Assembly (NCBI GenBank): GCA_020351835.1
Contig: CP070669.1
Location: 1,286,378-1,350,377, forward strand
DNA: 64,000 bases
Direction of reading: 5' to 3'
Source of the DNA: Nitrospirota bacterium
GTDB taxonomy: Bacteria > Nitrospirota > Thermodesulfovibrionia > Thermodesulfovibrionales > BMS3Bbin05
Under the pieces are notes generated by a model that made no database searches, was not told the DNA's origin, and worked only from the letters and a program-made list of their open reading frames with translations. A program made the position numbers and the translations under genes. Below, piece by piece: positions 8,750 through 54,742 of this stretch. Numbering within the stretch: the stretch's first letter is position 1; each line of letters begins with the position of its first letter.

Positions 8750-8825
8750 GCGGGCGTAGCTCAGCTGGTAGAGCACAACCTTGCCAAGGTTGGGGTCGCG
8801 AGTTCGAATCTCGTCGCCCGCTCCA
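8750..8825 (+). tRNA. tRNA-Gly (anticodon GCC)
   Basis: Hand-folded cloverleaf: acceptor GCGGGCG/CGCCCGC, D arm GCTC-AGCTGGTA-GAGC, anticodon arm CAACC-TTGCCAA-GGTTG, T arm GCGAG-TTCGAAT-CTCGT, encoded CCA. Confidence 0.95.
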
Positions 8826-8916
8826 TAAAGAGTAGATCAGGGGTCAGTAGTCGGGCTTAAATTTGTATAAATATGAGCAACAACCGACATCTGGTTTCTG
8901 ATTTTTTTATCTATAA

Positions 8917-8992
8917 GGCGGCGTACCCAAGTGGCTAAGGGAGAGGTCTGCAAAACCTTTATGCGCCGGTTCAAATCCGGCCGCCGCCTCCA
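8917..8992 (+). tRNA. tRNA-Cys (anticodon GCA)
   Basis: 76 nt. Acceptor GGCGGCG/CGCCGCC, anticodon loop CTGCAAA with GCA at positions 34-36, T arm GCCGG-TTCAAAT-CCGGC, U73 discriminator, A13:A22 mismatch typical of tRNA-Cys, encoded CCA. Confidence 0.93.
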
Positions 8993-39212: not shown

Positions 39213-39578
39213 ATGGCAAACAAGGTTGTGTATGTAATATCGGGAGACCCGAGAGAAAAAACAGAGAACGTATCCGCCGTATTTGCCCAGGCCCTTACTG
39301 CTATTTCGTTCGATTACGATTGCGAGATATTCCTGATGGATGAGGCGGTAAAGTCGGTGGTAAAGGGAGCCATTGACGATGTTAAGTTCAAGACGTTCGA
39401 GCCCATTGTCGAGATGATGTCCAACTATATGGATATGGGCGGCAAGTTGTATGTCTGTCACCCCTCAAGCGATGCGCGTGATATACACGAGGGTGACTGC
39501 ATAGAAGGTATCGAGTTCGTAAACGCGTCAAAATTGCTCGAAAGCGGAAAGAAAGCTGACGCTGTGTTCACTTTCTAA
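39213..39578 (+). CDS. DsrE-like small sulfur-relay protein (copy 1)
   Basis: 121 aa (VVYVISGDP...LYVCHPSSDAR...FVNASKL). GGAGAAGG lies before the ATG. It is a paralogue of 51836-52201. Confidence 0.55.
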   Translation: MANKVVYVISGDPREKTENVSAVFAQALTAISFDYDCEIFLMDEAVKSVVKGAIDDVKFKTFEPIVEMMSNYMDMGGKLYVCHPSSDARDIHEGDCIEGIEFVNASKLLESGKKADAVFTF

Positions 39579-46150: not shown

Positions 46151-47014
46151 ATGGCAGGCAACATACTTGTAGTGGATGATGAGCCTGTAGTCATAGTGAG
46201 TTGCGAGAGGATACTGACCCCTGAAGGATATTCCGTAAAGGGTGCTTCTTCCGTTGATGAGGCGATCGGCCATCTTCAGAACGGTGATTACGATCTTGTT
46301 ATCACGGACCTGAAGATGCCTAACAAAGGCGGGCTGGACCTCATCAAGTGGTTAAGGGATAACAACAGTAAGGCCGGCATAGTTGTGATCACCGGATATC
46401 CGTCACAGGAGACGATAAAGGATGCTCTACACATGGGCATCGTAGATTACCTTCCGAAACCTTTCTCGCCGGCACTCCTTATAGACGTAACCGCAAAGGC
46501 AATATCGTTCGTAAAGTCGAAAGGGATCGAAGAGGTCACTTCTGAGGAGCAGGAGATAACTGCCAAAGCCGAGGAGATAAAGAACGTTATCGTATCGAAC
46601 AAGGACAGGCCGGGAGGTCTTATTCCCGTGCTGCAGCAGGTCCAGGAGATACTTGGCTATCTTCCGCCGGCAGTTCTGAAACTTATAGCGCGCGGCCTTA
46701 ACTTACCCGTAAGCGAAGTTCATGGCGTAGTGTCGTTCTATTCTTTCTTCACTATGAAACCAAAGGGCAAGCACAATGTCCGTGTATGCATGGGTACTGC
46801 ATGCTACGTGAAGAGAGCTACCGAGATACTCGATAAGCTGAAAGATATCCTCGGCATAGAAGAGGAGGAAGTAACTGAGGACAAGCAGTTCTCACTTGAA
46901 ACGGTAAGGTGCCTGGGTGCCTGCGGTCTTGCACCGGTCGTGGTGGTCGATCATGATACTCATGGCTCGGTCGATCCGGTCAAAGTGTCTGGCCTGCTTG
47001 AGGAGTACAACTAA
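46151..47014 (+). CDS. Response-regulator receiver fused to a NuoE/HndA-type [2Fe-2S] subunit
   Basis: REC: ILVVDDEP, TDLKMPNKGG, VVITGYP, YLPKPF. A linker is followed by a NuoE fold: LIPVLQQVQEILGYLP, VSFYSFF, VRVCMGTACYV, RCLGACGLAPVVVVD. Confidence 0.85.
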   Translation: MAGNILVVDDEPVVIVSCERILTPEGYSVKGASSVDEAIGHLQNGDYDLVITDLKMPNKGGLDLIKWLRDNNSKAGIVVITGYPSQETIKDALHMGIVDYLPKPFSPALLIDVTAKAISFVKSKGIEEVTSEEQEITAKAEEIKNVIVSNKDRPGGLIPVLQQVQEILGYLPPAVLKLIARGLNLPVSEVHGVVSFYSFFTMKPKGKHNVRVCMGTACYVKRATEILDKLKDILGIEEEEVTEDKQFSLETVRCLGACGLAPVVVVDHDTHGSVDPVKVSGLLEEYN

Positions 47015-47026
47015 AAGGAGGATCTC

Positions 47027-47410
47027 ATGGCAAAACTGACAATAGATGAACTCAAAAAGCTGAAGGAACAATATAAGGACAAGACCCACCTGCGTGAGGG
47101 AGGGTCTACGGCAAAGGTAACGGTCCACATGGGAACATGCGGCCTGGCTGCTGGTTCGAGGGAGATAATGGATGCTCTCCTTGATGAGATCCAGAAGGCC
47201 AATGCATCGGAGGTTATGGTCACTACATCAGGATGTGCCGGTCTCTGCAGCAGGGAACCTATGGTCACTGTTGAAATGCTGGATGAGTCCCCTGTTAAGT
47301 ACGTAGACCTGACGGACGAGAAAATAAGAAAGATCTTTAAGGAACATATACGTGGTGGCAAGGTTGTGGAGGAATACGCTCTGGTAAGAGGATGCGAGAC
47401 ATCCTACTGA
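47027..47410 (+). CDS. HndB-type thioredoxin-like [2Fe-2S] ferredoxin
   Basis: 127 aa: VHMGTCGLAAGS...TSGCAGLCSREPMVTV. Confidence 0.75.
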   Translation: MAKLTIDELKKLKEQYKDKTHLREGGSTAKVTVHMGTCGLAAGSREIMDALLDEIQKANASEVMVTTSGCAGLCSREPMVTVEMLDESPVKYVDLTDEKIRKIFKEHIRGGKVVEEYALVRGCETSY

Positions 47411-47447
47411 TCAAAATGATAAATACCCATTGCTGGGAGGAGAATAA

Positions 47448-49283
47448 ATGGACAAAGTAAGATCAAATGTCATGCTCTGTGGCGGTACAGGATGCATAGC
47501 GACCGGTTCTCTTAAGGTAAAGGATGCCCTTGTTACAGAACTGAAGAAGCATAAGCTCTATGATCAGATAACCGTGACCCTCACGGGATGCAACGGTTTC
47601 TGCGCTCAGGGCCCGCTCGTCACGGTATTTCCCGAAGGTATCTTCTATGAAAAGCTGACCGCGGATGATATACCGTTCCTCGTCGAGGAGCATTTTCTGA
47701 AGGGAAGGCCCGTTGAGAAGTTCATGTACAAGGCACCTGAGGATAAATCGGCGGTACCCGCTATAAGCGAGATACCGTTCTTCAAGCACCAGGTGCTCAG
47801 AGCATTAAGGAACAAGGGAATAATCGATCCTGAAAAGATAGAGGAATACATTGCTCGGGACGGTTATATGGCCGCAGCCAAGGCACTGACCGAGATGAAG
47901 CCTGAAGATGTCGTGAAGGAGATGAAAGAGTCAGGCCTTAGAGGACGCGGCGGTGCCGGATTCCCCACCGGGCTTAAGTGGGAGCTCTGTGCGATGTCTA
48001 AGGGCGACCTTAAATATATCCTCTGTAACGGTGACGAGGGTGACCCTGGTGCATTCATGGACAGAAGTATAATGGAGGCCGACCCTCATGTCGTCCTTGA
48101 GGGAATGATAATAGCGGCCAAGGCCATAGGCGCCTCAAAGGGATATATCTATGTAAGGGCAGAATATCCTCTTGCAGTTGAAAGGCTTCAGAAGGCTATC
48201 GACCAGGCAAAGGACTATGGTCTCCTGGGTGAGAATATCCTTAACACAGGGTTCAATCTTGATATAGAGCTTTATCTTGGCGCTGGGGCTTTTGTCTGCG
48301 GTGAAGAAACAGCTCTGATGAGATCACTTGAGGGTAAGAGAGGTATGCCGATACCGCGTCCCCCGTTCCCGGCCCAGAAAGGTCTGTGGGGAAAGCCTAC
48401 GGTTCTAAATAATGTCGAGACCTACGCTAACATCCCACCTATTATCCTTAACGGCGGTGAATGGTATAAGAGTCTTGGTACCGAGAAATCCACAGGCACA
48501 AAGGTCTTCGCACTTACCGGTGCCGTTAATAATATCGGCCTCATCGAGGTTCCGATGGGTATACCTCTCAGGACCATTATCTACGATATCGGTGGCGGTA
48601 TACGAAAGGGCAGAAAGTTCAAAGCGGTTCAGCTCGGTGGCCCTTCGGGCGGATGTGTTCCCGAGCACCTTCTGGACACGCCTGTAACTTATGAGGATAT
48701 CGTACAGACCGGAGCCATCGTAGGTTCAGGCGGTATGGTCGTTATGGACGATTATAACTGTATGGTAAGCGTTGCACGTTTCTTTCTCGACTTCACGACT
48801 GAAGAGTCATGTGGTAAATGCCCGCCATGCAGGATCGGGACCAAGGTCATGAGGGACAAGCTGGCTGATATTACTGAGGGACGGGGGCAGGAAGGAGATG
48901 TCGAGCTTCTCCAGGACCTTGCAAAGGATATTATCAATACATCACTTTGCGGACTTGGCCAGACCGCACCTAACCCTATCCTTACAACGATAAAATATTT
49001 TAAGGACGAGTATGAATCACATATTCATGATAAATGGTGCAAGGCCGGTGTATGTACTGACCTTGCGACGTTCTACATCGACGAGGAAGCATGTAAGGGC
49101 TGCACGGTATGCGCAAAGAACTGTCCGCAGGAATGTATCGCCGGTGAAAAGAAGAAACCACATATCATCGATCAGGAAAAATGTGTCAAGTGCAGGACAT
49201 GCTACGAAAAGTGTAAGTTCAATGCCGTAAAGGTAGGGCCTGCGAACATGTTCGACAAGAAGGATGAGGAGGTGCAGGTATGA
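47448..49283 (+). CDS. HydB/HndC-type NuoF-like flavoprotein (2Fe-2S + FMN/NAD(P)H + N3 cluster + 2x[4Fe-4S])
   Basis: 611 aa: CGGTGC...GCNGFCAQGP; GLRGRGGAGFPTGLKW; SCGKCPPCRIG; CKGCTVCAKNCP and CVKCRTCYEKC. Confidence 0.85.
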   Translation: MDKVRSNVMLCGGTGCIATGSLKVKDALVTELKKHKLYDQITVTLTGCNGFCAQGPLVTVFPEGIFYEKLTADDIPFLVEEHFLKGRPVEKFMYKAPEDKSAVPAISEIPFFKHQVLRALRNKGIIDPEKIEEYIARDGYMAAAKALTEMKPEDVVKEMKESGLRGRGGAGFPTGLKWELCAMSKGDLKYILCNGDEGDPGAFMDRSIMEADPHVVLEGMIIAAKAIGASKGYIYVRAEYPLAVERLQKAIDQAKDYGLLGENILNTGFNLDIELYLGAGAFVCGEETALMRSLEGKRGMPIPRPPFPAQKGLWGKPTVLNNVETYANIPPIILNGGEWYKSLGTEKSTGTKVFALTGAVNNIGLIEVPMGIPLRTIIYDIGGGIRKGRKFKAVQLGGPSGGCVPEHLLDTPVTYEDIVQTGAIVGSGGMVVMDDYNCMVSVARFFLDFTTEESCGKCPPCRIGTKVMRDKLADITEGRGQEGDVELLQDLAKDIINTSLCGLGQTAPNPILTTIKYFKDEYESHIHDKWCKAGVCTDLATFYIDEEACKGCTVCAKNCPQECIAGEKKKPHIIDQEKCVKCRTCYEKCKFNAVKVGPANMFDKKDEEVQV

Positions 49284-51763
49284 TAGAGCTCACTATCGAC
49301 GGAAAAAAGGTTTCTGTACCTAAAGGCACAACAATAATAAATGCTGCAAGGGAGATCGGTATCTATATACCGAACCTCTGTTACGATAAGCGTCTTAAAC
49401 CATACGGCGGATGCAGGCTATGTGTTGTAGAGGTCGAGGGCCAGAGAAAACTGCTTGCCGCATGCTCTACCCCGGCCGAGAACGGCATGGTGGTGCAAAC
49501 GAACACACCTACCCTTCAGAAGGCAAGAAAGACCGTGCTGGAACTGCTTCTTATCCATCACCCGCTGGATTGCCCGGTGTGTGACAAGGCCGGTGAGTGC
49601 AAGCTCCAGGACCTTGCATATGAGTACGGTTCAACAGAAAGCCGCTTTGCCGGTGAAAGAAAGAATGATCCGGAGGCGACAGACAGTCCGCTTATAGTAA
49701 GGAATCCCAACAGATGTATTCTTTGCGGTAAATGCGTAAGGGTTTGCAGAGATCACCAGGGTGTCGGTGCGATAAATCTCATAGGCAGAGGGTTCAAGAC
49801 GAAGATCAGCCCCGCCTTTGAAGAGACCCTCGATTGCGAGTTCTGCGGACAGTGCATAGATGCATGCCCGGTAGGAGCTCTCGGAAGCAAGCCTTATGCT
49901 CATAGCGCAAGGGCATGGTTCCTTGAGGAACAGGACAACATCTGCCCGTACTGCTCTGTAGGTTGTACTGTCACTTATGACATAAGGGAAGAAAAGATAC
50001 TTCGCGCAAGAGGTGTGGAAGGGAAGGGGGTGAACAACGGAGACCTCTGCGGAAAGGGAAGGTTCGGTTTCGATTTTATTTATTCCGACAACAGGCTAAG
50101 GAAACCCCTTATGAAGAAGAACGGCGCACTCGAGGAAACATCATGGGAAGAGGCGCTGTATTTCGTATCTAACAAACTTAATGAAATAAAGGAGAGCAAG
50201 GGCGGTGATTCCATAGGAGCGATAGGATCACCTCGCGCAACGCTTGAGGATAATTACATCTTTCAGAAGTTCATGAGGGATGTAGTAGGAACGAACAACA
50301 TAGATTCTTCTGCGAGGTTAGGGTACGCAAAGGTCGTTAAGGGCATAGAGATGTCGTTCGGCATCAAATCTCAGCCGATCAAGCTGGATTCACCGATAGG
50401 CAAAGATTCCGTTCTTGTTGTCGAATCGGATATAACCTCTACACATCCTATATGGGGACTGCAGTTCCTTCAGGCAATGAGAGAGGGATCTAAACTGATC
50501 GTAGTTGAGCCGAGGGAAACAAAGCTTGCGCGGAATGCGTCAACATGGCTAAAGATGAGGCCTGGAACATCTGTAGCCTTCCTGAACGGCCTTGCAAAGC
50601 TCGCCATCACAGAGGGACTTGTTTACAATAACGAAACAATTATGTCAACGGAGGGCTATGACGAACTGGAAAAGACATTAAAGGACTATACTCCGGAGAA
50701 GGTTTCGGAGATCACGGGAATTGATAAGGAAGTGTTCGTTAAGAGCGCATTGGAGTTCCTCAAGTCTGAATCCAGAATGATCGCCCTGACCCTTACAAAC
50801 TCTGAGAACAGCAAGGGTCTTGATACTATCCTTGCCGCGGCCAATCTGGTAATGCTGACGGGGGACGGGCCAGCCGCTCTTCAGATACCGTCCGACTATT
50901 CGAATACGACCGGCATGTGGCAGATGGGGATATCCCCGGACCATGGTGCAGGACTGAAGGACATCGAGGGAGAAGCGGGCAAGAACGTTGCCGATATGCT
51001 TTATAGATCGGGCGAGCTGAGCGCCCTCTACATAATGGGCGAGGACCCGATCGTTACATTCCCCGATTCATCATCCATCAGTGACACCCTTGGTTCTCTC
51101 GACCTTCTTGTTGTTCAGGACATCAGGCTGACAGAAACGGCCAAGCTTGCTGATGTTGTCCTCCCGGCCGCCAGCTGGGGAGAGAAGGACGGCACCTTTA
51201 TTAACGGCAGCGGCCTGCCACAGCCGATAAAGAAGATGGTTCCTGTGACCGGGGACTCAATCCCCGACTGGCAGATAATGAGGAACCTTGCCCGTGTCAT
51301 GCAGGCGGATCTTGGTGCGGCCGATCTTCGCTCCATACAGAACGAGATAGCCGAGATCGGAGTTGAAGAGGGTGTGAAGAAATGGAAGTTCAATCCCGTT
51401 AAGCAGGAATTCGGAGAAAACGTCGATACGAGCTATCCTATCATGCTAGTCACCGGAAACGTAATGCAGCACTCGGGAGAGCTCTCGGTCATGTCAAAGA
51501 GCCTTAGCCACGTCCTTTCTGACGCGTTCATACAGATCAACCCGGCTGATGCCGAGAAAAGCAAAATTCATGACGGAGCATTTGTAAAGATCACGTCTTC
51601 AAGGGGTGAGGTGTTCATAAAGGCGAGGGTATCGGACGAGGTGCCAGAGGGAATGCTGTTCGTCCCGGTCCACTTCCCTCATGCGAGGGTTAACTCTCTG
51701 ACATATGTATCCGCTAACGGAAGTAACTCCCTGACCGCCGTAAAAGTGGAGCCCCAGAACTAG
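49280..51763 (+). CDS. NuoG-paralogous Fe-S / MopB-like subunit lacking the Mo-ligand Cys/Sec-His
   Basis: 827 aa, colinear with the nuoG in this window. Contains HPLDCPVCDKAGEC, CILCGKCVRVC, CEFCGQCIDACP and CPYCSVGC. The position of ARV(U/C)H in formate dehydrogenases reads ARLGY. Confidence 0.75.
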   Translation: MIELTIDGKKVSVPKGTTIINAAREIGIYIPNLCYDKRLKPYGGCRLCVVEVEGQRKLLAACSTPAENGMVVQTNTPTLQKARKTVLELLLIHHPLDCPVCDKAGECKLQDLAYEYGSTESRFAGERKNDPEATDSPLIVRNPNRCILCGKCVRVCRDHQGVGAINLIGRGFKTKISPAFEETLDCEFCGQCIDACPVGALGSKPYAHSARAWFLEEQDNICPYCSVGCTVTYDIREEKILRARGVEGKGVNNGDLCGKGRFGFDFIYSDNRLRKPLMKKNGALEETSWEEALYFVSNKLNEIKESKGGDSIGAIGSPRATLEDNYIFQKFMRDVVGTNNIDSSARLGYAKVVKGIEMSFGIKSQPIKLDSPIGKDSVLVVESDITSTHPIWGLQFLQAMREGSKLIVVEPRETKLARNASTWLKMRPGTSVAFLNGLAKLAITEGLVYNNETIMSTEGYDELEKTLKDYTPEKVSEITGIDKEVFVKSALEFLKSESRMIALTLTNSENSKGLDTILAAANLVMLTGDGPAALQIPSDYSNTTGMWQMGISPDHGAGLKDIEGEAGKNVADMLYRSGELSALYIMGEDPIVTFPDSSSISDTLGSLDLLVVQDIRLTETAKLADVVLPAASWGEKDGTFINGSGLPQPIKKMVPVTGDSIPDWQIMRNLARVMQADLGAADLRSIQNEIAEIGVEEGVKKWKFNPVKQEFGENVDTSYPIMLVTGNVMQHSGELSVMSKSLSHVLSDAFIQINPADAEKSKIHDGAFVKITSSRGEVFIKARVSDEVPEGMLFVPVHFPHARVNSLTYVSANGSNSLTAVKVEPQN

Positions 51764-51784
51764 GATATTCTAATTAGCACAAAA

Positions 51785-51817
51785 GCCCCGGTCCTAAAAA
51801 GGGCCGGGGCTTTCTTT
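51785..51817. terminator. Bidirectional hairpin terminator between convergent genes
   Basis: GCCCCGGTCC-TAAAAA-GGGCCGGGGC (10 bp with one G-U pair), with T-rich flanks on the plus strand and A-rich flanks upstream. Confidence 0.7.
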
Positions 51818-51835: not shown

Positions 51836-52201
51836 TCAGTAAGTTATAACAGCTCGTGCGTCTCCGGTAAGCGTTATAAGCTTGGAGGCATTAACGAACT
51901 CGTCAACCTCATCGATGCAGTTGTCCTTGTTCATTTTGCGGGCATCAGAAGAAGGATGGCATACATATACCTCTCCTCCCATTTCTTTGTAGTGACCAAG
52001 CATTATCTCAAGGCTCTCATATGTTTTGAACTTTACATCTTTAAGGTATCCCTTCTTTACAAAGTTAACGCCGTCATCAACAAAGAACATGCTGCAGCCG
52101 AAATCCATACTTAGAGCGGTCAGAGCCTGCGCAAAAGCACTTGATACCAGCTCGCATTTCTCCTTAGGGTCCGCAGATATGATGAATACATAAGATTCCA
52201 T
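51836..52201 (-). CDS. DsrE-like small sulfur-relay protein (copy 2)
   Basis: MESYVFIISADP...VYVCHPSSDAR...FVNASKL. Roughly half the positions are identical by eye to 39213-39578. The ATG at 52201 follows AAGGAGG. The track start at 52207 is a TTG. Confidence 0.55.
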   Translation of the reverse strand: MESYVFIISADPKEKCELVSSAFAQALTALSMDFGCSMFFVDDGVNFVKKGYLKDVKFKTYESLEIMLGHYKEMGGEVYVCHPSSDARKMNKDNCIDEVDEFVNASKLITLTGDARAVITY

Positions 52202-52272
52202 TTGCAAAGCCTCCTTGTTGCTTTTTTATATACAATTTAAAACCCCGCGCGATATAACGTCATTATATACGA

Positions 52273-52302
52273 TTGCTCAAAAAAAGTTAAATAGTTTATA
52301 AT
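52273..52302 (+). promoter_or_regulatory. Candidate sigma-70 promoter (TTGCTC-18 nt-TATAAT) for the HesB-like gene
   Basis: Hexamers read directly from the sequence, about 30 nt upstream of the ATG at 52335. Confidence 0.3.
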
Positions 52303-52334
52303 ATTAGAAACAAGTGCAATAAGACGGAGGAAGC

Positions 52335-52637
52335 ATGGTTACACTAACAGAAAGCGCAGTTAACAAGTTCAAGGACATAGTCGAACAGGAAGGAAGGTCC
52401 GGCGAGGGAATAAGAATATTTCTTGCTCCCGGCGGCTGAGGTCCATCTCTGGCTATGGACATAGCCAAAGAAGGCGTTGAGGGTGATTCTACCCTTGAGA
52501 AGGACGGGCTGAACGTATATCTCGACCCGCAGGCAAATGCGATGCTGACGAACTCGAAGATAGACTTCAATGATCGTCAGGGTTTTGCAATAACAGGGCT
52601 TGAGCAGAGCTCATCCTGTGGTTCTTGCAAGTGCTAA
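52335..52637 (+). CDS. HesB/IscA-type A-type Fe-S carrier with selenocysteine (TGA at 52437-52439) in place of the first ligand Cys
   Basis: GGAGG is followed by an ATG at 52335. Translation is MVTLTESAVNKFKDIVEQEGRSGEGIRIFLAPGG-U-GPSLAMDIAKEG...SSSCGSCKC. The TGA is codon 35, the position of IscA Cys35 (SGCSG). The reading frame is continuous with track ORF 52455-52637. Confidence 0.8.
52447..52470 (+). promoter_or_regulatory. Candidate bacterial SECIS hairpin
   Basis: CTCTGGCTAT-GGAC-ATAGCCAAAG: a 6-bp perfect core stem that is extendable, with an apical loop starting GG about 20 nt after the UGA. Confidence 0.5.
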
Positions 52638-52663
52638 GATAAGAAACCTTTAGCATTGTTCAG

Positions 52664-52699
52664 GCGCTGCCTCTATAGAAAGGGGCAGCGCTTTTTTTT
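52664..52699 (+). terminator. Rho-independent terminator
   Basis: GCGCTGCC...GGCAGCGC stem followed by a run of 8 T. Confidence 0.8.
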
Positions 52700-52787
52700 A
52701 TGCTCATTTCGTAGAAGAATCCCTTATTCTCATGTAAAATCTGATTAGGAGGGGTAGAGGGCGCAATAAGATGACCGGGGTGATCGA

Positions 52788-53528
52788 ATGCTCTCTGTTG
52801 AGAACCTTTCTGTAAGCGTCGAAGGCAGGCAGATCCTGCATGATCTTAACCTGCATGTCATGACCGGGGAAACAGTCGCTCTCTTCGGTCCTAACGGCTC
52901 CGGCAAGACCTCGCTTCTGAAGGCCATCATAGGGGTACCTTCATACAGTATTGAGTCCGGGAAGATCATCTTTAAAGGAAATGACTTAACCCGCCTCAGC
53001 ATGCATGAACGGGCAGTGCTCGGCATCGGGATGTCCTTTCAGAGACCGCCTGCCATAAGAGGGGTCAAGCTTAGAGACCTGCTTGTTACATGTGTTAAAA
53101 AGAGAGGCGGGGTAGATCCGGGCGATATTAACGACATGATAATGAGGCTTGGCCTCAGTGACCTTGCGGAGAGAGATATCAATAAGGGATTTTCTGGCGG
53201 GGAGATCAAGCGTTCAGAGCTTATACAGCTTCAGGCCCAGGGCCCCGACCTTCTGCTGCTTGACGAGCCGGATTCTGGAGTAGACCTGATAAGCATTGAG
53301 CTTGTAGGAAGCGTTATCAACGAGCTACTTCAAAAGGACAGAAAGAAGGACAGAAGGGAAAAAGCGGGGCTAATTATCAGCCATGCGGGGCATATCCTTG
53401 ACTATGTAAATGCCGACAGGGCATACGTTATGCTTAACGGCACTCTTCAATGCTCCGGAAATCCTCGTGAGCTCCTGGATGACATAATAGAAAAAGGCTA
53501 TGAAGGATGCACTGTATGCAAAGGGTAG
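52788..53528 (+). CDS. sufC: Fe-S cluster assembly ATPase SufC
   Basis: 246 aa: Walker A GPNGSGKTS, signature FSGGEIKR, Walker B LLLLDEPDSGVD. Confidence 0.88.
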   Translation: MLSVENLSVSVEGRQILHDLNLHVMTGETVALFGPNGSGKTSLLKAIIGVPSYSIESGKIIFKGNDLTRLSMHERAVLGIGMSFQRPPAIRGVKLRDLLVTCVKKRGGVDPGDINDMIMRLGLSDLAERDINKGFSGGEIKRSELIQLQAQGPDLLLLDEPDSGVDLISIELVGSVINELLQKDRKKDRREKAGLIISHAGHILDYVNADRAYVMLNGTLQCSGNPRELLDDIIEKGYEGCTVCKG

Positions 53529-54742
53529 ACCATGAAAAGAGGGCATTAAGGGCCGTAAGAAAGAGAGCCGATTTCGGGCCCGATCTCGACATCGGTTCCT
53601 ATGAGCACGAGACAAAAGAACTTGATAAGGTCAGGGCGCTCAACGACCTGCCGGGTGACATTGCCGGGGCATCCACAGATGTCGGTATTGAGACCGACGA
53701 AAGCTGCAGATCAGGCACTTTTTTTCAGATAAATCACTCGGTCGTACTGTCAACGGTATACCAGGATGGTCTGGAGATCATGAGCATAACAGAGGCGCTT
53801 CAGAAGTATGACTGGCTCTCCGGGTACCGGTGGCAAGCAATGAAGGAGGACGCAGACAAGTTCACAGCTGAAGCAGAGTTGCACCAGCACCAGGGATACT
53901 TTATAAGGGCATTACCTGGTTCGAAAGTTGAGCTCCCCCTCCAGGCCTGTCTTTTCATGGACCAGGACTCACTCATACAGAACGTTCACAATATAATTAT
54001 TGCCGAAGAGGGCTCCGAGCTTCATATAATTACGGGCTGCGCGGCGGCTGCAAGTGTGAACCGAGGGCTTCATATCGGCATATCTGAGTTCTACATCAAA
54101 AAGAACGCAAAAATGACCTTCACAATGATCCATAAATGGGCCGATAATATGGCCGTAAGACCAAGGTCAGCAGCCATTATAGATGAGAGCGGTCTTTTCC
54201 TGAGCAACTACGTATGCATCAAACCTGTCAGAACGCTTCAGATGTATCCTACGGTCTATTGCACAGGCAAGAACTCGACTGCTCGCTTCAATGCCGTTCT
54301 GGTCGCTCATGAAGGGTCCGATATGGATGTTGGTTCGAGAGTATACCTGAGAAAGGAAGGAAGCAGGGCAGAGGTCATCACCAGAGCTATATCCGAAGGA
54401 GGGAACATCTTCGCAAGAGGCCATCTTATTGGAGAGGTGCCTGACATCAAAGCCCATCTTGAGTGCCGCGGTCTGATCCTTTCAGAGAAGGGCTCTATTC
54501 ATGCAATACCCGAGCTCGAGGGGAAGGTGAGCAATGTAGATATGTCACATGAGGCCGCTGTAGGAAAGATCGCGGAGGAGGAGATACAGTACCTTATGGC
54601 CAGGGGCCTGAGCGAGGAGGAGGCAACGTCTGCCATAGTCAGAGGCTTCCTTGACATTGAGGTAAAAGGACTGCCTTCGCAACTTCAGGCAGAGATGAAA
54701 AAAGCCTTACATCCGAAAGAACTTAAGGACAGGGTATTGTGA
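53507..54742 (+). CDS. SufB/SufD-family Fe-S scaffold protein
   Basis: 411 aa with the family C-terminus: ECRGLILSEKGSIHAIPELEG...DMSHEAAVGKIAEEEIQYLMARGLSEEEATSAIVRGF. The start overlaps the end of sufC. Confidence 0.8.
   Translation: MHCMQRVDHEKRALRAVRKRADFGPDLDIGSYEHETKELDKVRALNDLPGDIAGASTDVGIETDESCRSGTFFQINHSVVLSTVYQDGLEIMSITEALQKYDWLSGYRWQAMKEDADKFTAEAELHQHQGYFIRALPGSKVELPLQACLFMDQDSLIQNVHNIIIAEEGSELHIITGCAAAASVNRGLHIGISEFYIKKNAKMTFTMIHKWADNMAVRPRSAAIIDESGLFLSNYVCIKPVRTLQMYPTVYCTGKNSTARFNAVLVAHEGSDMDVGSRVYLRKEGSRAEVITRAISEGGNIFARGHLIGEVPDIKAHLECRGLILSEKGSIHAIPELEGKVSNVDMSHEAAVGKIAEEEIQYLMARGLSEEEATSAIVRGFLDIEVKGLPSQLQAEMKKALHPKELKDRVL

What the first reader, a model, noticed from the sequence alone, without database searches (positions are those of the whole stretch)
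52335..52637. HesB/IscA-type Fe-S carrier with selenocysteine at the Cys35 ligand position
The ORF track reports only the C-terminal 60 aa (52455-52637). Upstream, a GGAGG-ATG at 52335 opens the same frame, and the only interruption is TGA at 52437-52439. The flanks read FLAPGG-TGA-GPSLAM. This is the G-C-S-G region of A-type carriers, and the TGA is codon 35, the position of IscA Cys35. The C-terminus keeps the Cys cluster SCGSCKC. A hairpin (52447-52470, loop GGAC about 20 nt after UGA) fits the bacterial SECIS geometry. HesB-like proteins are a reported bacterial selenoprotein family, so this is probably not a new family. It does establish that this genome decodes Sec, and it places a Sec-containing carrier directly upstream of sufC-sufB/D.
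Basis: partly seen in the sequence, partly recalled or inferred. Interest (0 to 1): 0.7.

Follow-up and report, generated by a model that had tools for sequence, protein, structure and literature searches.

The report
Selenocysteine-containing HesB/IscA-like carrier gene
A small iron-sulfur-carrier-like gene in this Nitrospirota genome is read through an internal UGA as selenocysteine; the kind of selenoprotein is already known, but this lineage is annotated only as a 60-residue fragment in every database entry found here.

Summary
ATG 52335 and TGA 52437 (codon 35) lie in one frame that ends at TAA 52635. The read-through product is a 100-aa Fe-S_biosyn (HesB/IscA) domain, and the TGA aligns with IscA Cys35.

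Comparative data make recoding the only reasonable reading:
- All 24 species-level genomes found by protein patterns, and more than 120 metagenome contigs, keep the in-frame TGA.
- The 34 upstream codons evolve like coding sequence.
- A 7-bp hairpin with a GGNN loop starts 10 nt after the UGA. Its synonymous sites are frozen and every stem change keeps pairing.
- A Cys (TGC) homologue encodes the same residues with other codons and no hairpin.
- TGA is an ordinary stop elsewhere in the window.

It belongs to the kind "HesB-like selenoprotein", known since 2004-2006. It is a separate, mostly Nitrospirota subfamily (G-[GC]-U-[SGR]-P-S, Cys-rich tail) that falls below both curated NCBIfam cut-offs.

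sufC-sufB lies downstream here and in about half of the relatives. Many relatives also carry arsenic-resistance genes upstream.

Not shown: selABCD/tRNA-Sec in this genome, Sec rather than Cys insertion, and Fe-S binding.

Verdict: real, and a new member of a known kind.

The parts
52326..52330 (+). Shine-Dalgarno GGAGG, 4 nt before the true start codon
   Evidence: Read directly. AGGAGGAAG occurs in 57 of 117 distinct upstream regions of relatives. No comparable site precedes the mis-called start at 52455.
52335..52637 (+). Full selenoprotein CDS: 100 codons including UGA35, then stop TAA 52635-52637. It is a HesB/IscA (A-type carrier-like) domain.
   Evidence: Translation. PF01521 8.6e-11 over residues 2-87. 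TIGR00049 56.4 bits. ATG sits 34 codons before the TGA in 134 of 139 complete relatives.
52437..52439 (+). In-frame UGA, codon 35, read as selenocysteine. It replaces the first conserved cluster-ligand Cys (E. coli IscA Cys35).
   Evidence: TGA in 27 of 27 orthologues collected without reference to the codon. It aligns to the conserved Cys of solved A-type carriers and to the U of published HesB-like selenoproteins. The Cys homologue has TGC here.
52450..52467 (+). Apical SECIS hairpin: 7-bp stem (52450-56 / 52461-67) and tetraloop GGAC (52457-60). The stem starts 10 nt after UGA.
   Evidence: Fold. Consensus fold. Third-position entropy 0.12 in codons 39-45 against 1.3-1.4 elsewhere. 139 of 140 cells paired, with G-C>A-U (3), G-C>G.U (2), U-A>U.G (3). 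Loop GG invariant, positions 3-4 variable.
52438..52478 (+). Possible lower extension of the SECIS stem. It is interrupted and is not conserved among relatives.
   Evidence: Seen only in the MFE fold of the window sequence. It is absent from the consensus fold.
52455..52457 (+). Met41 codon, taken as the start by gene callers. It lies inside the SECIS hairpin (last two stem bases plus the first loop base).
   Evidence: ORF list. Database fragments of 47-66 aa that start MDI/MGI/MVI form about 22 clusters at 50% identity.
52617..52634 (+). C-terminal Cys cluster C95-G-S-C98-K-C100. C98-x-C100 aligns with the CxC ligand pair of A-type carriers.
   Evidence: Read directly. Alignment to Aq_1857 'gscgc'. 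100 of 117 distinct relatives have 3 Cys in the last 12 residues.
52662..52701 (+). Intrinsic-terminator-like hairpin (13 bp, 8 G-C) followed by a T run. It ends the hesB transcript before sufC.
   Evidence: Pattern scan; sequence.
52788..53528 (+). sufC-like ABC ATPase
   Evidence: TIGR01978 189.7 bits, below the 212.8 cut-off. PF00005. A SufC homologue lies on the same strand within 2.5 kb downstream in 26 of 51 relatives with enough flank.
53507..54742 (+). sufB/sufD-core (SmsB-like) scaffold gene
   Evidence: PF01458 3.4e-41. NF052511 SmsB 197.8 bits and TIGR01980 sufB 182 bits, both below their cut-offs. No sufS/D/E/U in the neighbouring genes.
51836..52207 (-). DsrE/TusC-like sulfur-relay gene, divergent from hesB. 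The same arrangement occurs in the closest relatives L091 and L097.
   Evidence: PF02635 7.9e-14. tblastn context.

Best explanation
The gene at 52335-52637 encodes a 100-residue selenoprotein of the HesB/IscA (A-type Fe-S carrier) fold.

Decoding (inferred from strong comparative evidence): while the mRNA is translated, the hairpin at 52450-52467 acts as a bacterial SECIS. It recruits SelB.GTP.Sec-tRNA(Sec) to the ribosome paused at UGA35, so selenocysteine is inserted instead of termination.

Function (inferred from homology and context, not shown): Sec35 takes the place of the invariant first ligand cysteine. Together with the C-terminal C98-x-C100 (plus C95) it forms a Se/S site that holds a transient Fe-S cluster at a dimer interface. 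The protein passes the cluster between the adjacent two-gene SufC-SufB scaffold and apo-proteins.

The gene is its own transcription unit, with terminator-like hairpins on both sides.
For: **Recoding**
- TGA is in frame at the same codon in 4 database orthologues and in all 24 genomes recovered with protein patterns that do not involve the TGA or the hairpin.
- Codons 2-34 have position entropies 0.57 / 0.27 / 1.41, the signature of purifying selection on a protein.
- An RBS precedes ATG 52335 and none precedes Met41.
- The PF01521 match spans the TGA, residues 2-87.
- TGA ends 21 of 48 long ORFs in the window, so there is no code reassignment.

**SECIS**
- A 7-bp stem with a GG-first tetraloop starts 10 nt after UGA.
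- Synonymous sites are frozen only in codons 39-45.
- 99.3% of cells are paired, against 14-45% when the partners are slid. One compensatory G-C>A-U change costs two amino-acid changes (A40T, A44V). All other stem changes are wobble-compatible.
- A TGC (Cys) homologue encodes the same SLAMD with other codons and has no hairpin.
- All 80 listed metagenome matches to TGA plus the hairpin lie in this gene family, in frame with the conserved N-terminus (L078 is a truncated remnant).

**Family and ligand position**
- Alignments to solved A-type carriers and to published HesB-like selenoproteins place U35 in the ligand column.
- HesB-like selenoproteins are established, with 75Se labelling in M. maripaludis (PMC11097638, PMC1794560).

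**SUF link**
- sufC-sufB lies downstream here and in 26 of 51 relatives.

**Sec trait in the lineage**
- selB/selC are reported in Nitrospirae, and full selABCD in Thermodesulfovibrio (PMC8124441, PMC5389517).
Against: - No selA, selB, selD or tRNA-Sec lies in the window or in 874 kb of related loci, so the machinery of this genome is unverified.
- No Rfam family, SECIS families included, matches 52300-52700 even at E<=10.
- Covariation is thin because the hairpin hardly varies: one pair with double changes.
- The single-sequence fold is only moderately unusual, z = -2.48.
- For function, the protein misses the curated cut-offs of all specific carrier models: IscA, SufA, ErpA, TIGR01911, NF038090.
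- Its C-terminal motif is non-canonical.
- In this window a terminator separates it from sufC.
- About half of the relatives are next to arsenic-resistance genes rather than, or in addition to, suf genes.
Confidence: 0.85

Rival explanations
1. The protein is made as a selenoprotein, but its job is not Fe-S delivery. It is a thiophilic-metalloid binder: an As(III) chaperone or buffer, or an arsenic-stress-specific partner of SufBC. It uses the Sec/Cys site plus the Cys-rich tail as a soft-ligand site, as ArsD uses vicinal cysteines.
For: - Relatives sit in a conserved same-strand cluster: arsR-acr3-(trx)-arsC(LMWPc)-hesB(Sec)-(Trx-membrane protein)-sufC-sufB.
- LMWPc lies within 1.1 kb upstream in 43 of 97 loci. 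Some ars gene lies within 3 kb upstream in 25 of 43.
- ACR3 scores 455 bits against a cut-off of 283. LMWPc scores 158.8 on the arsC_pI258 model, cut-off 174.
- The Cys form P0015 and the Sec form in L163 lie directly after arsD.
- Cys forms carry vicinal pairs: G-C-C-G-P-S and a C-terminal SCC.
- HesB-like genes inside ars operons are reported in Bacillus sp. CDB3 (PMC4562236) and Exiguobacterium (PMC8779447).
Against: - The window itself has no ars gene. Its neighbours are DsrE-like and sufCB.
- The ligand geometry (Cys35 column plus CxC) is that of Fe-S carriers.
- sufCB linkage is as frequent as ars linkage.
- No experiment links any HesB-like protein to arsenic binding. The Bacillus orf7 is uncharacterised.
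Confidence: 0.2
2. UGA35 is recoded through the same hairpin and SelB, but cysteine is inserted rather than selenocysteine. A tRNA(Sec)-like selC* tRNA(Cys) delivers it, at least when selenium is scarce.
For: selC* tRNA(Cys) genes that can decode UGA were reported in Thermodesulfovibrio and in contigs probably from Nitrospirae (PMC5389517). The sequence evidence here cannot tell Sec from Cys insertion.
Against: - All genomes with selC* also had the complete selABCD set (PMC5389517).
- No selC* or any tRNA(Sec)-like gene lies in the window or the loci.
- Keeping a costly UGA plus SECIS in more than 100 lineages while TGC forms exist argues that Sec itself is selected.
Confidence: 0.05
3. The TGA is a genuine stop. 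The locus is either a pseudogene or a split gene that gives a 34-aa peptide and a separately initiated 60-aa protein from ATG 52455, as in the public annotation.
For: Gene callers and the NCBI record annotate only the 60-aa ORF. A 34-aa ORF is called upstream in several relatives.
Against: - The TGA is kept at one codon in every orthologue, while the flanking codons drift synonymously.
- ATG 52455 has no RBS and is buried in the hairpin.
- The Pfam domain spans the stop, and contiguous Cys homologues exist.
- A pseudogene would not show coding constraint on both sides in more than 100 distinct sequences.
Confidence: 0.03

Closest known systems
HesB-like selenoprotein family (Kryukov & Gladyshev 2004; Zhang et al. 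2006, PMC1794560; NCBIfam TIGR01911, motif UxGP, PMC13188914; 75Se-verified in Methanococcus maripaludis, PMC11097638)
   Same: - A small (about 90-105 aa) HesB/IscA-fold protein.
- Sec sits in the column of the first conserved ligand Cys, preceded by G-G or G-F-G.
- It has a Cys-rich, often CC- or CxxC-containing C-terminal tail instead of CGCGxSF.
- A bacterial SECIS lies just downstream, and Cys homologues exist.
   Different: - One residue shorter after Sec: U-[SGR]-P-S rather than U-x-G-P.
- TIGR01911 scores only 20-32 bits against a cut-off of 66.35.
- blastp gives 0-53 bits to the 10 published members aligned, no better than to E. coli IscA, against 69-130 bits within this clade.
- The clade is centred on Nitrospirota, a phylum not among the 2006 members.
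- The SECIS is nearly invariant in sequence.
NCBIfam NF038090 'IscA_HesB_Se' (IscA/HesB family protein subfamily)
   Same: It gives the third-best NCBIfam match for the window protein (second-best for several relatives) and aligns end to end, 1-99 of 101 positions.
   Different: Scores are 28-58 bits against a cut-off of 85 for the window protein, its Sec relatives and the Cys forms. By the curators' criterion it is not a member.
A-type Fe-S carriers IscA / SufA / ErpA (E. coli IscA, PDB 1S98/1R94; HI1723 2APN; Aq_1857 1NWB)
   Same: PF01521 domain. The three-ligand layout is kept: the Cys35 column is Sec here, and C-x-C lies near the C-terminus. It lies next to suf scaffold genes.
   Different: - Sec replaces Cys at ligand 1.
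- An extra Cys95 is present, and the protein ends right after the CxC with no GxSF.
- It is below all equivalog cut-offs; TIGR00049 gives 56.4 against 58.8.
E. coli fdhF SECIS (minimal upper stem-loop 11 nt after UGA, apical loop GGUC; own knowledge of Liu et al. 1998 and Huttenhofer/Bock work, not checked here)
   Same: The stem starts 10 nt after UGA. The loop begins 17 nt after the UGA codon. The tetraloop starts with GG, and one relative (L163) has exactly GGUC.
   Different: The 5' arm has no bulged U. The sequence is different. No Rfam model matches. SelB binding is untested.
HesB-like orf7 of the Bacillus sp. CDB3 ars1 operon (arsRYCDAT-orf7-orf8, PMC4562236) and hesB in Exiguobacterium ars operons (PMC8779447)
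   Same: A HesB-like gene is embedded among arsR, arsD, arsC and arsenite-efflux genes, as in about half of the relatives of the window gene.
   Different: Those are Firmicutes genes whose sequences were not compared here. Neither paper calls them selenoproteins. The window gene itself has no ars neighbour.

Membership tests
A-type Fe-S carrier / HesB-IscA superfamily (Pfam PF01521 Fe-S_biosyn) | Match to the domain model above the gathering score | tested here: met
   42.5 bits against 26.3, residues 2-87, with U35 entered as C.
A-type Fe-S carrier / HesB-IscA superfamily (Pfam PF01521 Fe-S_biosyn) | Three conserved ligand cysteines (E. coli IscA C35, C99, C101) | tested here: met
   U35 is in the Cys35 column. 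C98-K-C100 aligns with the CxC of Aq_1857. The first ligand is Sec, not Cys. Some relatives have CC or CSCS instead of CxC.
A-type Fe-S carrier / HesB-IscA superfamily (Pfam PF01521 Fe-S_biosyn) | Binds and transfers a [2Fe-2S] or [4Fe-4S] cluster | not testable with these tools
   This needs purified protein and reconstitution.
IscA, SufA, ErpA equivalogs (TIGR02011, TIGR01997, NF010147) and TIGR00049 | Score at or above the curated NCBIfam cut-off | tested here: not met
   IscA 29.3 against 150.6. SufA 47.6 against 136.2. ErpA 39.4 against 117. TIGR00049 56.4 against 58.8.
HesB-like selenoprotein (TIGR01911 HesB_rel_seleno) | Score at or above the curated cut-off | tested here: not met
   20.0 against 66.35 for the window protein. 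At most 31.6 for relatives and Cys forms.
HesB-like selenoprotein (TIGR01911 HesB_rel_seleno) | Sec (TGA) aligned with the conserved Cys of the HesB domain | tested here: met
   MAFFT with 10 of the published members and IscA; phmmer to PDB chains.
HesB-like selenoprotein (TIGR01911 HesB_rel_seleno) | Motif U-x-G-P (PMC13188914, Table 1) | tested here: not met
   The window has U-G-P-S. Relatives have U-S-P-S (98), U-R-P-S (7), U-G-P-S (7). All are one residue shorter.
NF038090 IscA_HesB_Se | Score at or above the curated cut-off (85 bits) | tested here: not met
   46.3 bits for the window protein; 28-58 bits for relatives and Cys forms.
Bacterial selenoprotein gene (UGA + SECIS recoding) | In-frame UGA conserved among orthologues, with Cys (TGC/TGT) in homologues at the same column | tested here: met
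   TGA in 27 of 27 independently collected orthologues. TGC in P0015. Cys in 12 full-length homologues.
Bacterial selenoprotein gene (UGA + SECIS recoding) | Stem-loop just downstream of UGA with a small apical loop that contains G (PMC1088965) | tested here: met
   7-bp stem starting 10 nt after UGA. The tetraloop is GGAC/GGGU/GGUC/GGAU with GG invariant.
Bacterial selenoprotein gene (UGA + SECIS recoding) | Evolutionary signature of RNA structure: suppressed synonymous change and pair-preserving substitutions | tested here: met
   Third-position entropy 0.12 against about 1.35. 139 of 140 cells paired. One compensatory pair and five wobble-compatible single changes. The hairpin is absent in the Cys form.
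Bacterial selenoprotein gene (UGA + SECIS recoding) | selA, selB, selC and selD present in the same genome | not testable with these tools
   None lies in the 64-kb window or in 874 kb of related loci. The remaining 2.2 Mb of the contig could not be fetched. Only phylum-level literature support exists (PMC8124441, PMC5389517).
Bacterial selenoprotein gene (UGA + SECIS recoding) | Selenium in the protein | not testable with these tools
   This needs 75Se labelling or MS.
Rfam SECIS families | Covariance-model match | tested here: not met
   No SECIS family matched 52300-52700 at E<=10, and none matched the whole window at gathering score.

The most novel reading that the evidence does not exclude
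This subfamily (Sec forms G-[GC]-U-x-P-S, Cys forms G-C-C-G-P-S, with an SCC or CxxCxC tail) may not be a housekeeping Fe-S carrier. It may be the selenium/thiol centre of an arsenic-stress module. Such a module would be a conserved arsR-acr3-arsC-hesB(Sec)-sufC-sufB supra-operon. In it, a Sec-bearing HesB-fold protein would either capture As(III) through an As-Se/S3 site or keep a dedicated minimal SufBC machine working when arsenite poisons thiol-based carriers. That would tie selenium use, arsenic resistance and Fe-S biogenesis together in anaerobic Nitrospirota.
Probability: 0.2. Interest if true: 0.7.

Novelty: new member of a known kind. Interest (0 to 1): 0.35.

Why it matters
**Annotation.** Every close relative found in a 5.8-billion-protein database is recorded only as a 55-66-residue "hypothetical protein" that starts at a methionine inside the SECIS. 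The curated NCBIfam models that would trigger selenoprotein annotation do not reach this clade. A model for this subfamily would correct more than a hundred records. It would also give a quick marker of the Sec-decoding trait in Nitrospirota MAGs.

**Biology.** This is a further case of selenium replacing the first ligand sulfur of an A-type carrier. The function of HesB-like selenoproteins is still called unclear (PMC11097638). The recurrent sufCB and ars neighbourhoods give concrete hypotheses that can be tested.

**RNA.** The nearly invariant hairpin with a GGNN loop offers a clean natural series for studying SelB recognition in this phylum.

Tried and rejected
- Rfam at gathering score on the whole window, and at E<=10 on 52300-52700: tRNAs and chance sRNA hits only, no SECIS family.
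- ARAGORN on the window and 26 loci: no tRNA-Sec.
- tblastn with E. coli SelA (C-terminal part), SelB and SelD against the window and all 160 loci: nothing. The refutation test "absence of selABCD" could therefore not be run. The window is 64 kb of a 2.29-Mb contig, and no tool fetches the rest.
- Scan of the window for other single-TGA read-through ORFs: 81 candidates. All but hesB are spurious overlaps with weak folds, so there is no second selenoprotein gene.
- The upstream 827-aa molybdopterin protein was considered as a Sec/Cys formate dehydrogenase. It passes the NuoG model (479.6 against 470) and has no internal stop.
The C-terminal 60-aa profile was used instead.
It was replaced by a DNA pattern scan. 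That scan selects for the hairpin, so those 120 loci were not used as evidence of hairpin conservation.
- Global UGA reassignment was rejected: TGA ends 21 of 48 long ORFs.
- The link to the upstream NuoEFG-like operon was rejected. It is shared only with the near-identical BMS3 genomes and is absent from the other relatives.
- The search for arsenic binding by ISCA proteins found nothing usable.
- Structure prediction was not attempted.
Full report
**1. The observation**

The sequence is as described.
- GGAGG (52326-52330) lies 4 nt before ATG 52335.
- That frame runs to TAA 52635-52637. Its only interruption is TGA 52437-52439, which is codon 35.
- The flanks read ...IRIFLAPGG-TGA-GPSLAMDIAK..., and the protein ends SSSCGSCKC.
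- The mechanical ORF list holds only 52455-52637 (60 aa).
- That fragment is also the only product on record for this locus: P0001, 100% identical, 'hypothetical protein JSV21_07240', a Nitrospirota MAG with a 2.29-Mb contig.
- With U entered as C, the 100-aa product matches Pfam Fe-S_biosyn (PF01521) over residues 2-87, so the match runs across the stop.
- phmmer against solved structures aligns position 35 with the conserved ligand cysteine of HI1723, Aq_1857 and E. coli IscA. It aligns C98-x-C100 with the C-terminal CxC.

**2. Whether the TGA is read through**

Every relative says yes.
- The only database relatives were three further clusters of 61-aa fragments. On their contigs each is preceded, in frame, by a 34-codon ORF that ends in TGA and has a conserved N-terminus.
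- The species-representative genome collection was scanned with two peptide patterns. Neither pattern covers the TGA or the hairpin. The scan gave 26 loci.
- 24 of these carry TGA at the same codon. They are Nitrospirota or Thermodesulfovibrionales MAGs, plus one labelled Betaproteobacteria.
- The other two are distant ordinary Cys carriers.
- Across 27 sequences the upstream codons 2-34 have per-position entropies of 0.57 / 0.27 / 1.41. Codons 46-90 have 0.66 / 0.53 / 1.34. Both halves are therefore under protein-coding selection in one frame, and the TGA is invariant.
- TGA is an ordinary stop in this organism: it ends 21 of 48 long ORFs in the window. The recoding must therefore be local.
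- ATG 52455 has no ribosome-binding site and lies inside the hairpin. The true start has an AGGAGG-type site in most relatives.

**3. The hairpin**

- UGA is followed after 10 nt by a 7-bp stem (52450-56 / 52461-67) that closes a tetraloop GGAC.
- On its own the fold is only moderately unusual (z = -2.48). It is nevertheless the most stable among 81 read-through candidates in the window.
- The comparative signal is strong. Third-position entropy falls to 0.12 in codons 39-45 and is zero in codons 39-44. Those codons are always YTG GCT ATG GAC ATA GCC. The adjacent Pro37 and Ser38 codons use all four synonymous codons.
- L011, L032 and L033 carry a compensatory G-C to A-U change. It costs two amino-acid replacements, A40T and A44V.
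- More divergent Sec forms were found through the protein profile. They have loops GGGU, GGUC or GGAU, and their stem changes are all wobble-compatible.
- In a 20-sequence alignment 139 of 140 cells pair, against 14-45% when the partners are slid by 1-3 columns. The first two loop bases are GG in all 20.
- A natural control exists. The Cys homologue P0015 has TGC at the Sec position and encodes the same S-L-A-M-D with different codons (GCC ATG GAT GTT GCA). It has no hairpin.
- The frozen codons are therefore an RNA constraint and not a protein constraint.
- The geometry fits the published description of bacterial SECIS elements, a small apical loop containing G just downstream of UGA (PMC1088965). 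It also fits, from my own knowledge, the E. coli fdhF element: upper stem 11 nt after UGA, loop GGUC.
- No Rfam family matches.

**4. Extent of the family**

- All 80 listed matches are this gene, in frame with the conserved N-terminus (L078 is a truncated remnant).
- This set was selected for the hairpin. It is used here only for counts and gene context.
- In all there are 155 loci, 139 complete genes and 117 distinct proteins of 94-105 aa.
- The motif around Sec is GGUSPS (98), GGURPS (7), GGUGPS (7, the window type), GGUSPT (2) or GCU (3).
- 100 of the 117 have three cysteines in the last 12 residues.
- An exhaustive profile search with the C-terminal 60 aa found 73 representatives.
- About 22 of them are fragments of 47-66 aa that begin at the SECIS methionine.
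- The full-length ones are Cys forms with G-C-C-G-P-S and a C-terminal SCC(G/S).
- Cys and Sec forms interleave by similarity. The CC form P0015 scores 118 bits with the CU form L030, more than L030 scores with the window protein. This suggests switches along CC, CU and GU.

**5. Relation to what is known**

- HesB-like selenoproteins were described in 2004-2006. There were 11 bacterial members in PMC1794560.
- The family is listed with motif UxGP under TIGR01911 in PMC13188914. It was confirmed by 75Se labelling in M. maripaludis, with function 'not clear' (PMC11097638).
- I aligned 10 of the 11 published sequences with this clade and with E. coli IscA. The Sec residues and IscA Cys35 share one column, and both groups have Cys-rich tails.
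- This clade is nevertheless one residue shorter after Sec.
- It scores 0-53 bits against the published members, about the same as against IscA (23-39).
- It fails the curated cut-offs of TIGR01911 (20 against 66.35) and NF038090 (46.3 against 85). So do its relatives and Cys forms.
- It is therefore a further lineage of a known kind, not a member of the curated families. Whether Sec arose once or independently is open.

**6. Context and function**

- In the window the gene stands alone between two terminator-like hairpins (51782-51813 and 52662-52693).
- A divergent DsrE/TusC-like gene (51836-52207) lies upstream.
- sufC (52788) and a sufB/D-core gene (53507) lie downstream. Both are below the equivalog cut-offs. 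The best hit of the second is the 'SUF-like minimal system' SmsB model.
- No sufS, sufD, sufE or sufU is nearby.
- The NuoE/F/G-like operon upstream is shared only with the near-identical BMS3 genomes.
- Across relatives the recurrent, same-strand neighbourhood is [arsR-acr3-(trx)] or [unknown-apbE], then LMWPc-type arsC, hesB(Sec), optionally a Trx-fused membrane protein, then sufC-sufB.
- SufC lies within 2.5 kb downstream in 26 of 51 loci with enough flank.
- LMWPc lies within 1.1 kb upstream in 43 of 97.
- Some ars gene lies within 3 kb upstream in 25 of 43.
- 23 of 27 loci with 3 kb on both sides have one or the other.
- A Cys form and a divergent Sec form follow arsD directly.
- HesB-like genes inside ars operons are on record in Firmicutes: Bacillus sp. 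CDB3 orf7 (PMC4562236) and Exiguobacterium (PMC8779447). They are uncharacterised.
- The window has no ars gene.

For the window gene, the best-supported function is therefore a Sec-liganded A-type carrier that serves the adjacent minimal SufCB scaffold. This is inferred from homology, ligand layout and synteny. A role in metalloid (arsenic) handling is a live alternative for the subfamily, at about 0.2.

**7. What remains unproven**

- The Sec machinery of this genome could not be examined. No sel gene or tRNA-Sec lies in the window or in 874 kb of related loci.
- Support is at phylum level only: selB/selC in Nitrospirae (PMC8124441) and complete selABCD in Thermodesulfovibrio (PMC5389517).
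- PMC5389517 also reports selC* tRNA(Cys) species that can read UGA as Cys in this group. Sequence alone cannot exclude Cys insertion.
- Selenium content, SelB binding and Fe-S or As binding all need experiments.

**8. Verdict**

- The gene is a genuine, systematically mis-annotated selenoprotein gene: a new, mostly Nitrospirota subfamily of the known HesB-like selenoprotein kind.
- Confidence that UGA35 is recoded through the hairpin is about 0.85-0.9.
- Confidence in the Fe-S carrier role is about 0.55.
- Interest is modest (0.35). The phenomenon is well established. The useful additions are the annotation gap, the unusually clean SECIS evidence and the suf/ars gene context.

Noticed in passing
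L012, L017, L019, L021, L023, L030, L044, L074, L081, L096, L098, L163 and others (relatives; not in the window): The Sec-hesB gene of relatives sits in a recurrent same-strand cluster with arsenic-resistance genes: arsR, ACR3 arsenite efflux, thioredoxin, LMWPc-type arsC, arsP, and arsD in some. These usually lie upstream, with sufC-sufB downstream. Some ars gene lies within 3 kb upstream in 25 of 43 loci.
   Followed up: partly
window 51836-52207 (-) and 39228-39575 (+): A DsrE/TusC-like sulfur-relay gene is transcribed divergently from hesB. The same pairing occurs in the closest relatives L091 and L097. A 53%-identical paralogue lies 12 kb upstream in the window. DsrE-like proteins are themselves a reported selenoprotein family, but these two have no internal stop.
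   Followed up: partly
window 52788-54742: The suf locus is only two genes: sufC and a 411-aa SufBD-core protein. The best NCBIfam hit of the second is the 'SUF-like minimal system protein SmsB' model (197.8 bits, far below its 650 cut-off). No sufS/D/E/U lies in the flanking genes. Relatives carry either this type (about 60% identical) or a shorter one (316 aa, about 25% identical).
   Followed up: partly
Relatives, about 75-95 nt upstream of the hesB start (e.g. L012, L022, L027, L044, L059, L063): A conserved promoter-like block AAAAAACAGTTGCGAAT...TGAATATATTGGTAATATA is followed by a CTGAG...CTCAG hairpin in the 5' leader. The block has an A-tract, a TTGCGA -35 and an extended -10. The window and its closest relatives lack this leader. 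It may be a regulator-binding site, and which regulator is unknown.
   Followed up: no
L014, L017, L018, L028, L032, L033, L055 and others, between hesB and sufC: A protein of about 490-540 aa has an N-terminal thioredoxin-like CPHC segment and a multi-pass membrane domain. It has no Pfam or NCBIfam match. It lies directly downstream of Sec-hesB in 18 of 72 loci.
   Followed up: no
window 46151-51763 (+): This is a NuoE/NuoF/NuoG-like module. It comprises a response-regulator receiver fused to a thioredoxin-like [2Fe-2S] ferredoxin (287 aa), a second NuoE-like ORF (127 aa), a 611-aa NuoF-like protein with extra ferredoxin domains, and an 827-aa NuoG/formate-dehydrogenase-like molybdopterin protein. 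It ends in a strong terminator at 51782-51813. The same order occurs in the BMS3Abin07/BMS3Bbin05 genomes. There an ISL3 transposase has replaced the sufCB side.
   Followed up: partly
Database-wide (P0005-P0045): About 22 clusters at 50% identity consist of 47-66-aa 'proteins' that begin MDI/MGI/MVI/MDV. They are C-terminal fragments of Sec-hesB genes, called from the methionine codon inside the SECIS hairpin. Every one of the five looked up (P0010, P0011, P0016, P0018, P0020) had the in-frame TGA and the conserved N-terminus upstream.
   Followed up: yes
L078 (metagenome contig Ga0124853_1501624): One match to the TGA-plus-hairpin pattern is a short remnant (WSKIFLVPGG-U-SPSLAMDIAKAAQRVI) next to a sufC-like gene. 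It is probably a decayed or mis-assembled copy.
   Followed up: no
window 8750-8992 (+): tRNA-Gly(GCC) and tRNA-Cys(GCA) are the only tRNA genes in the window. There is no tRNA-Sec.
   Followed up: yes
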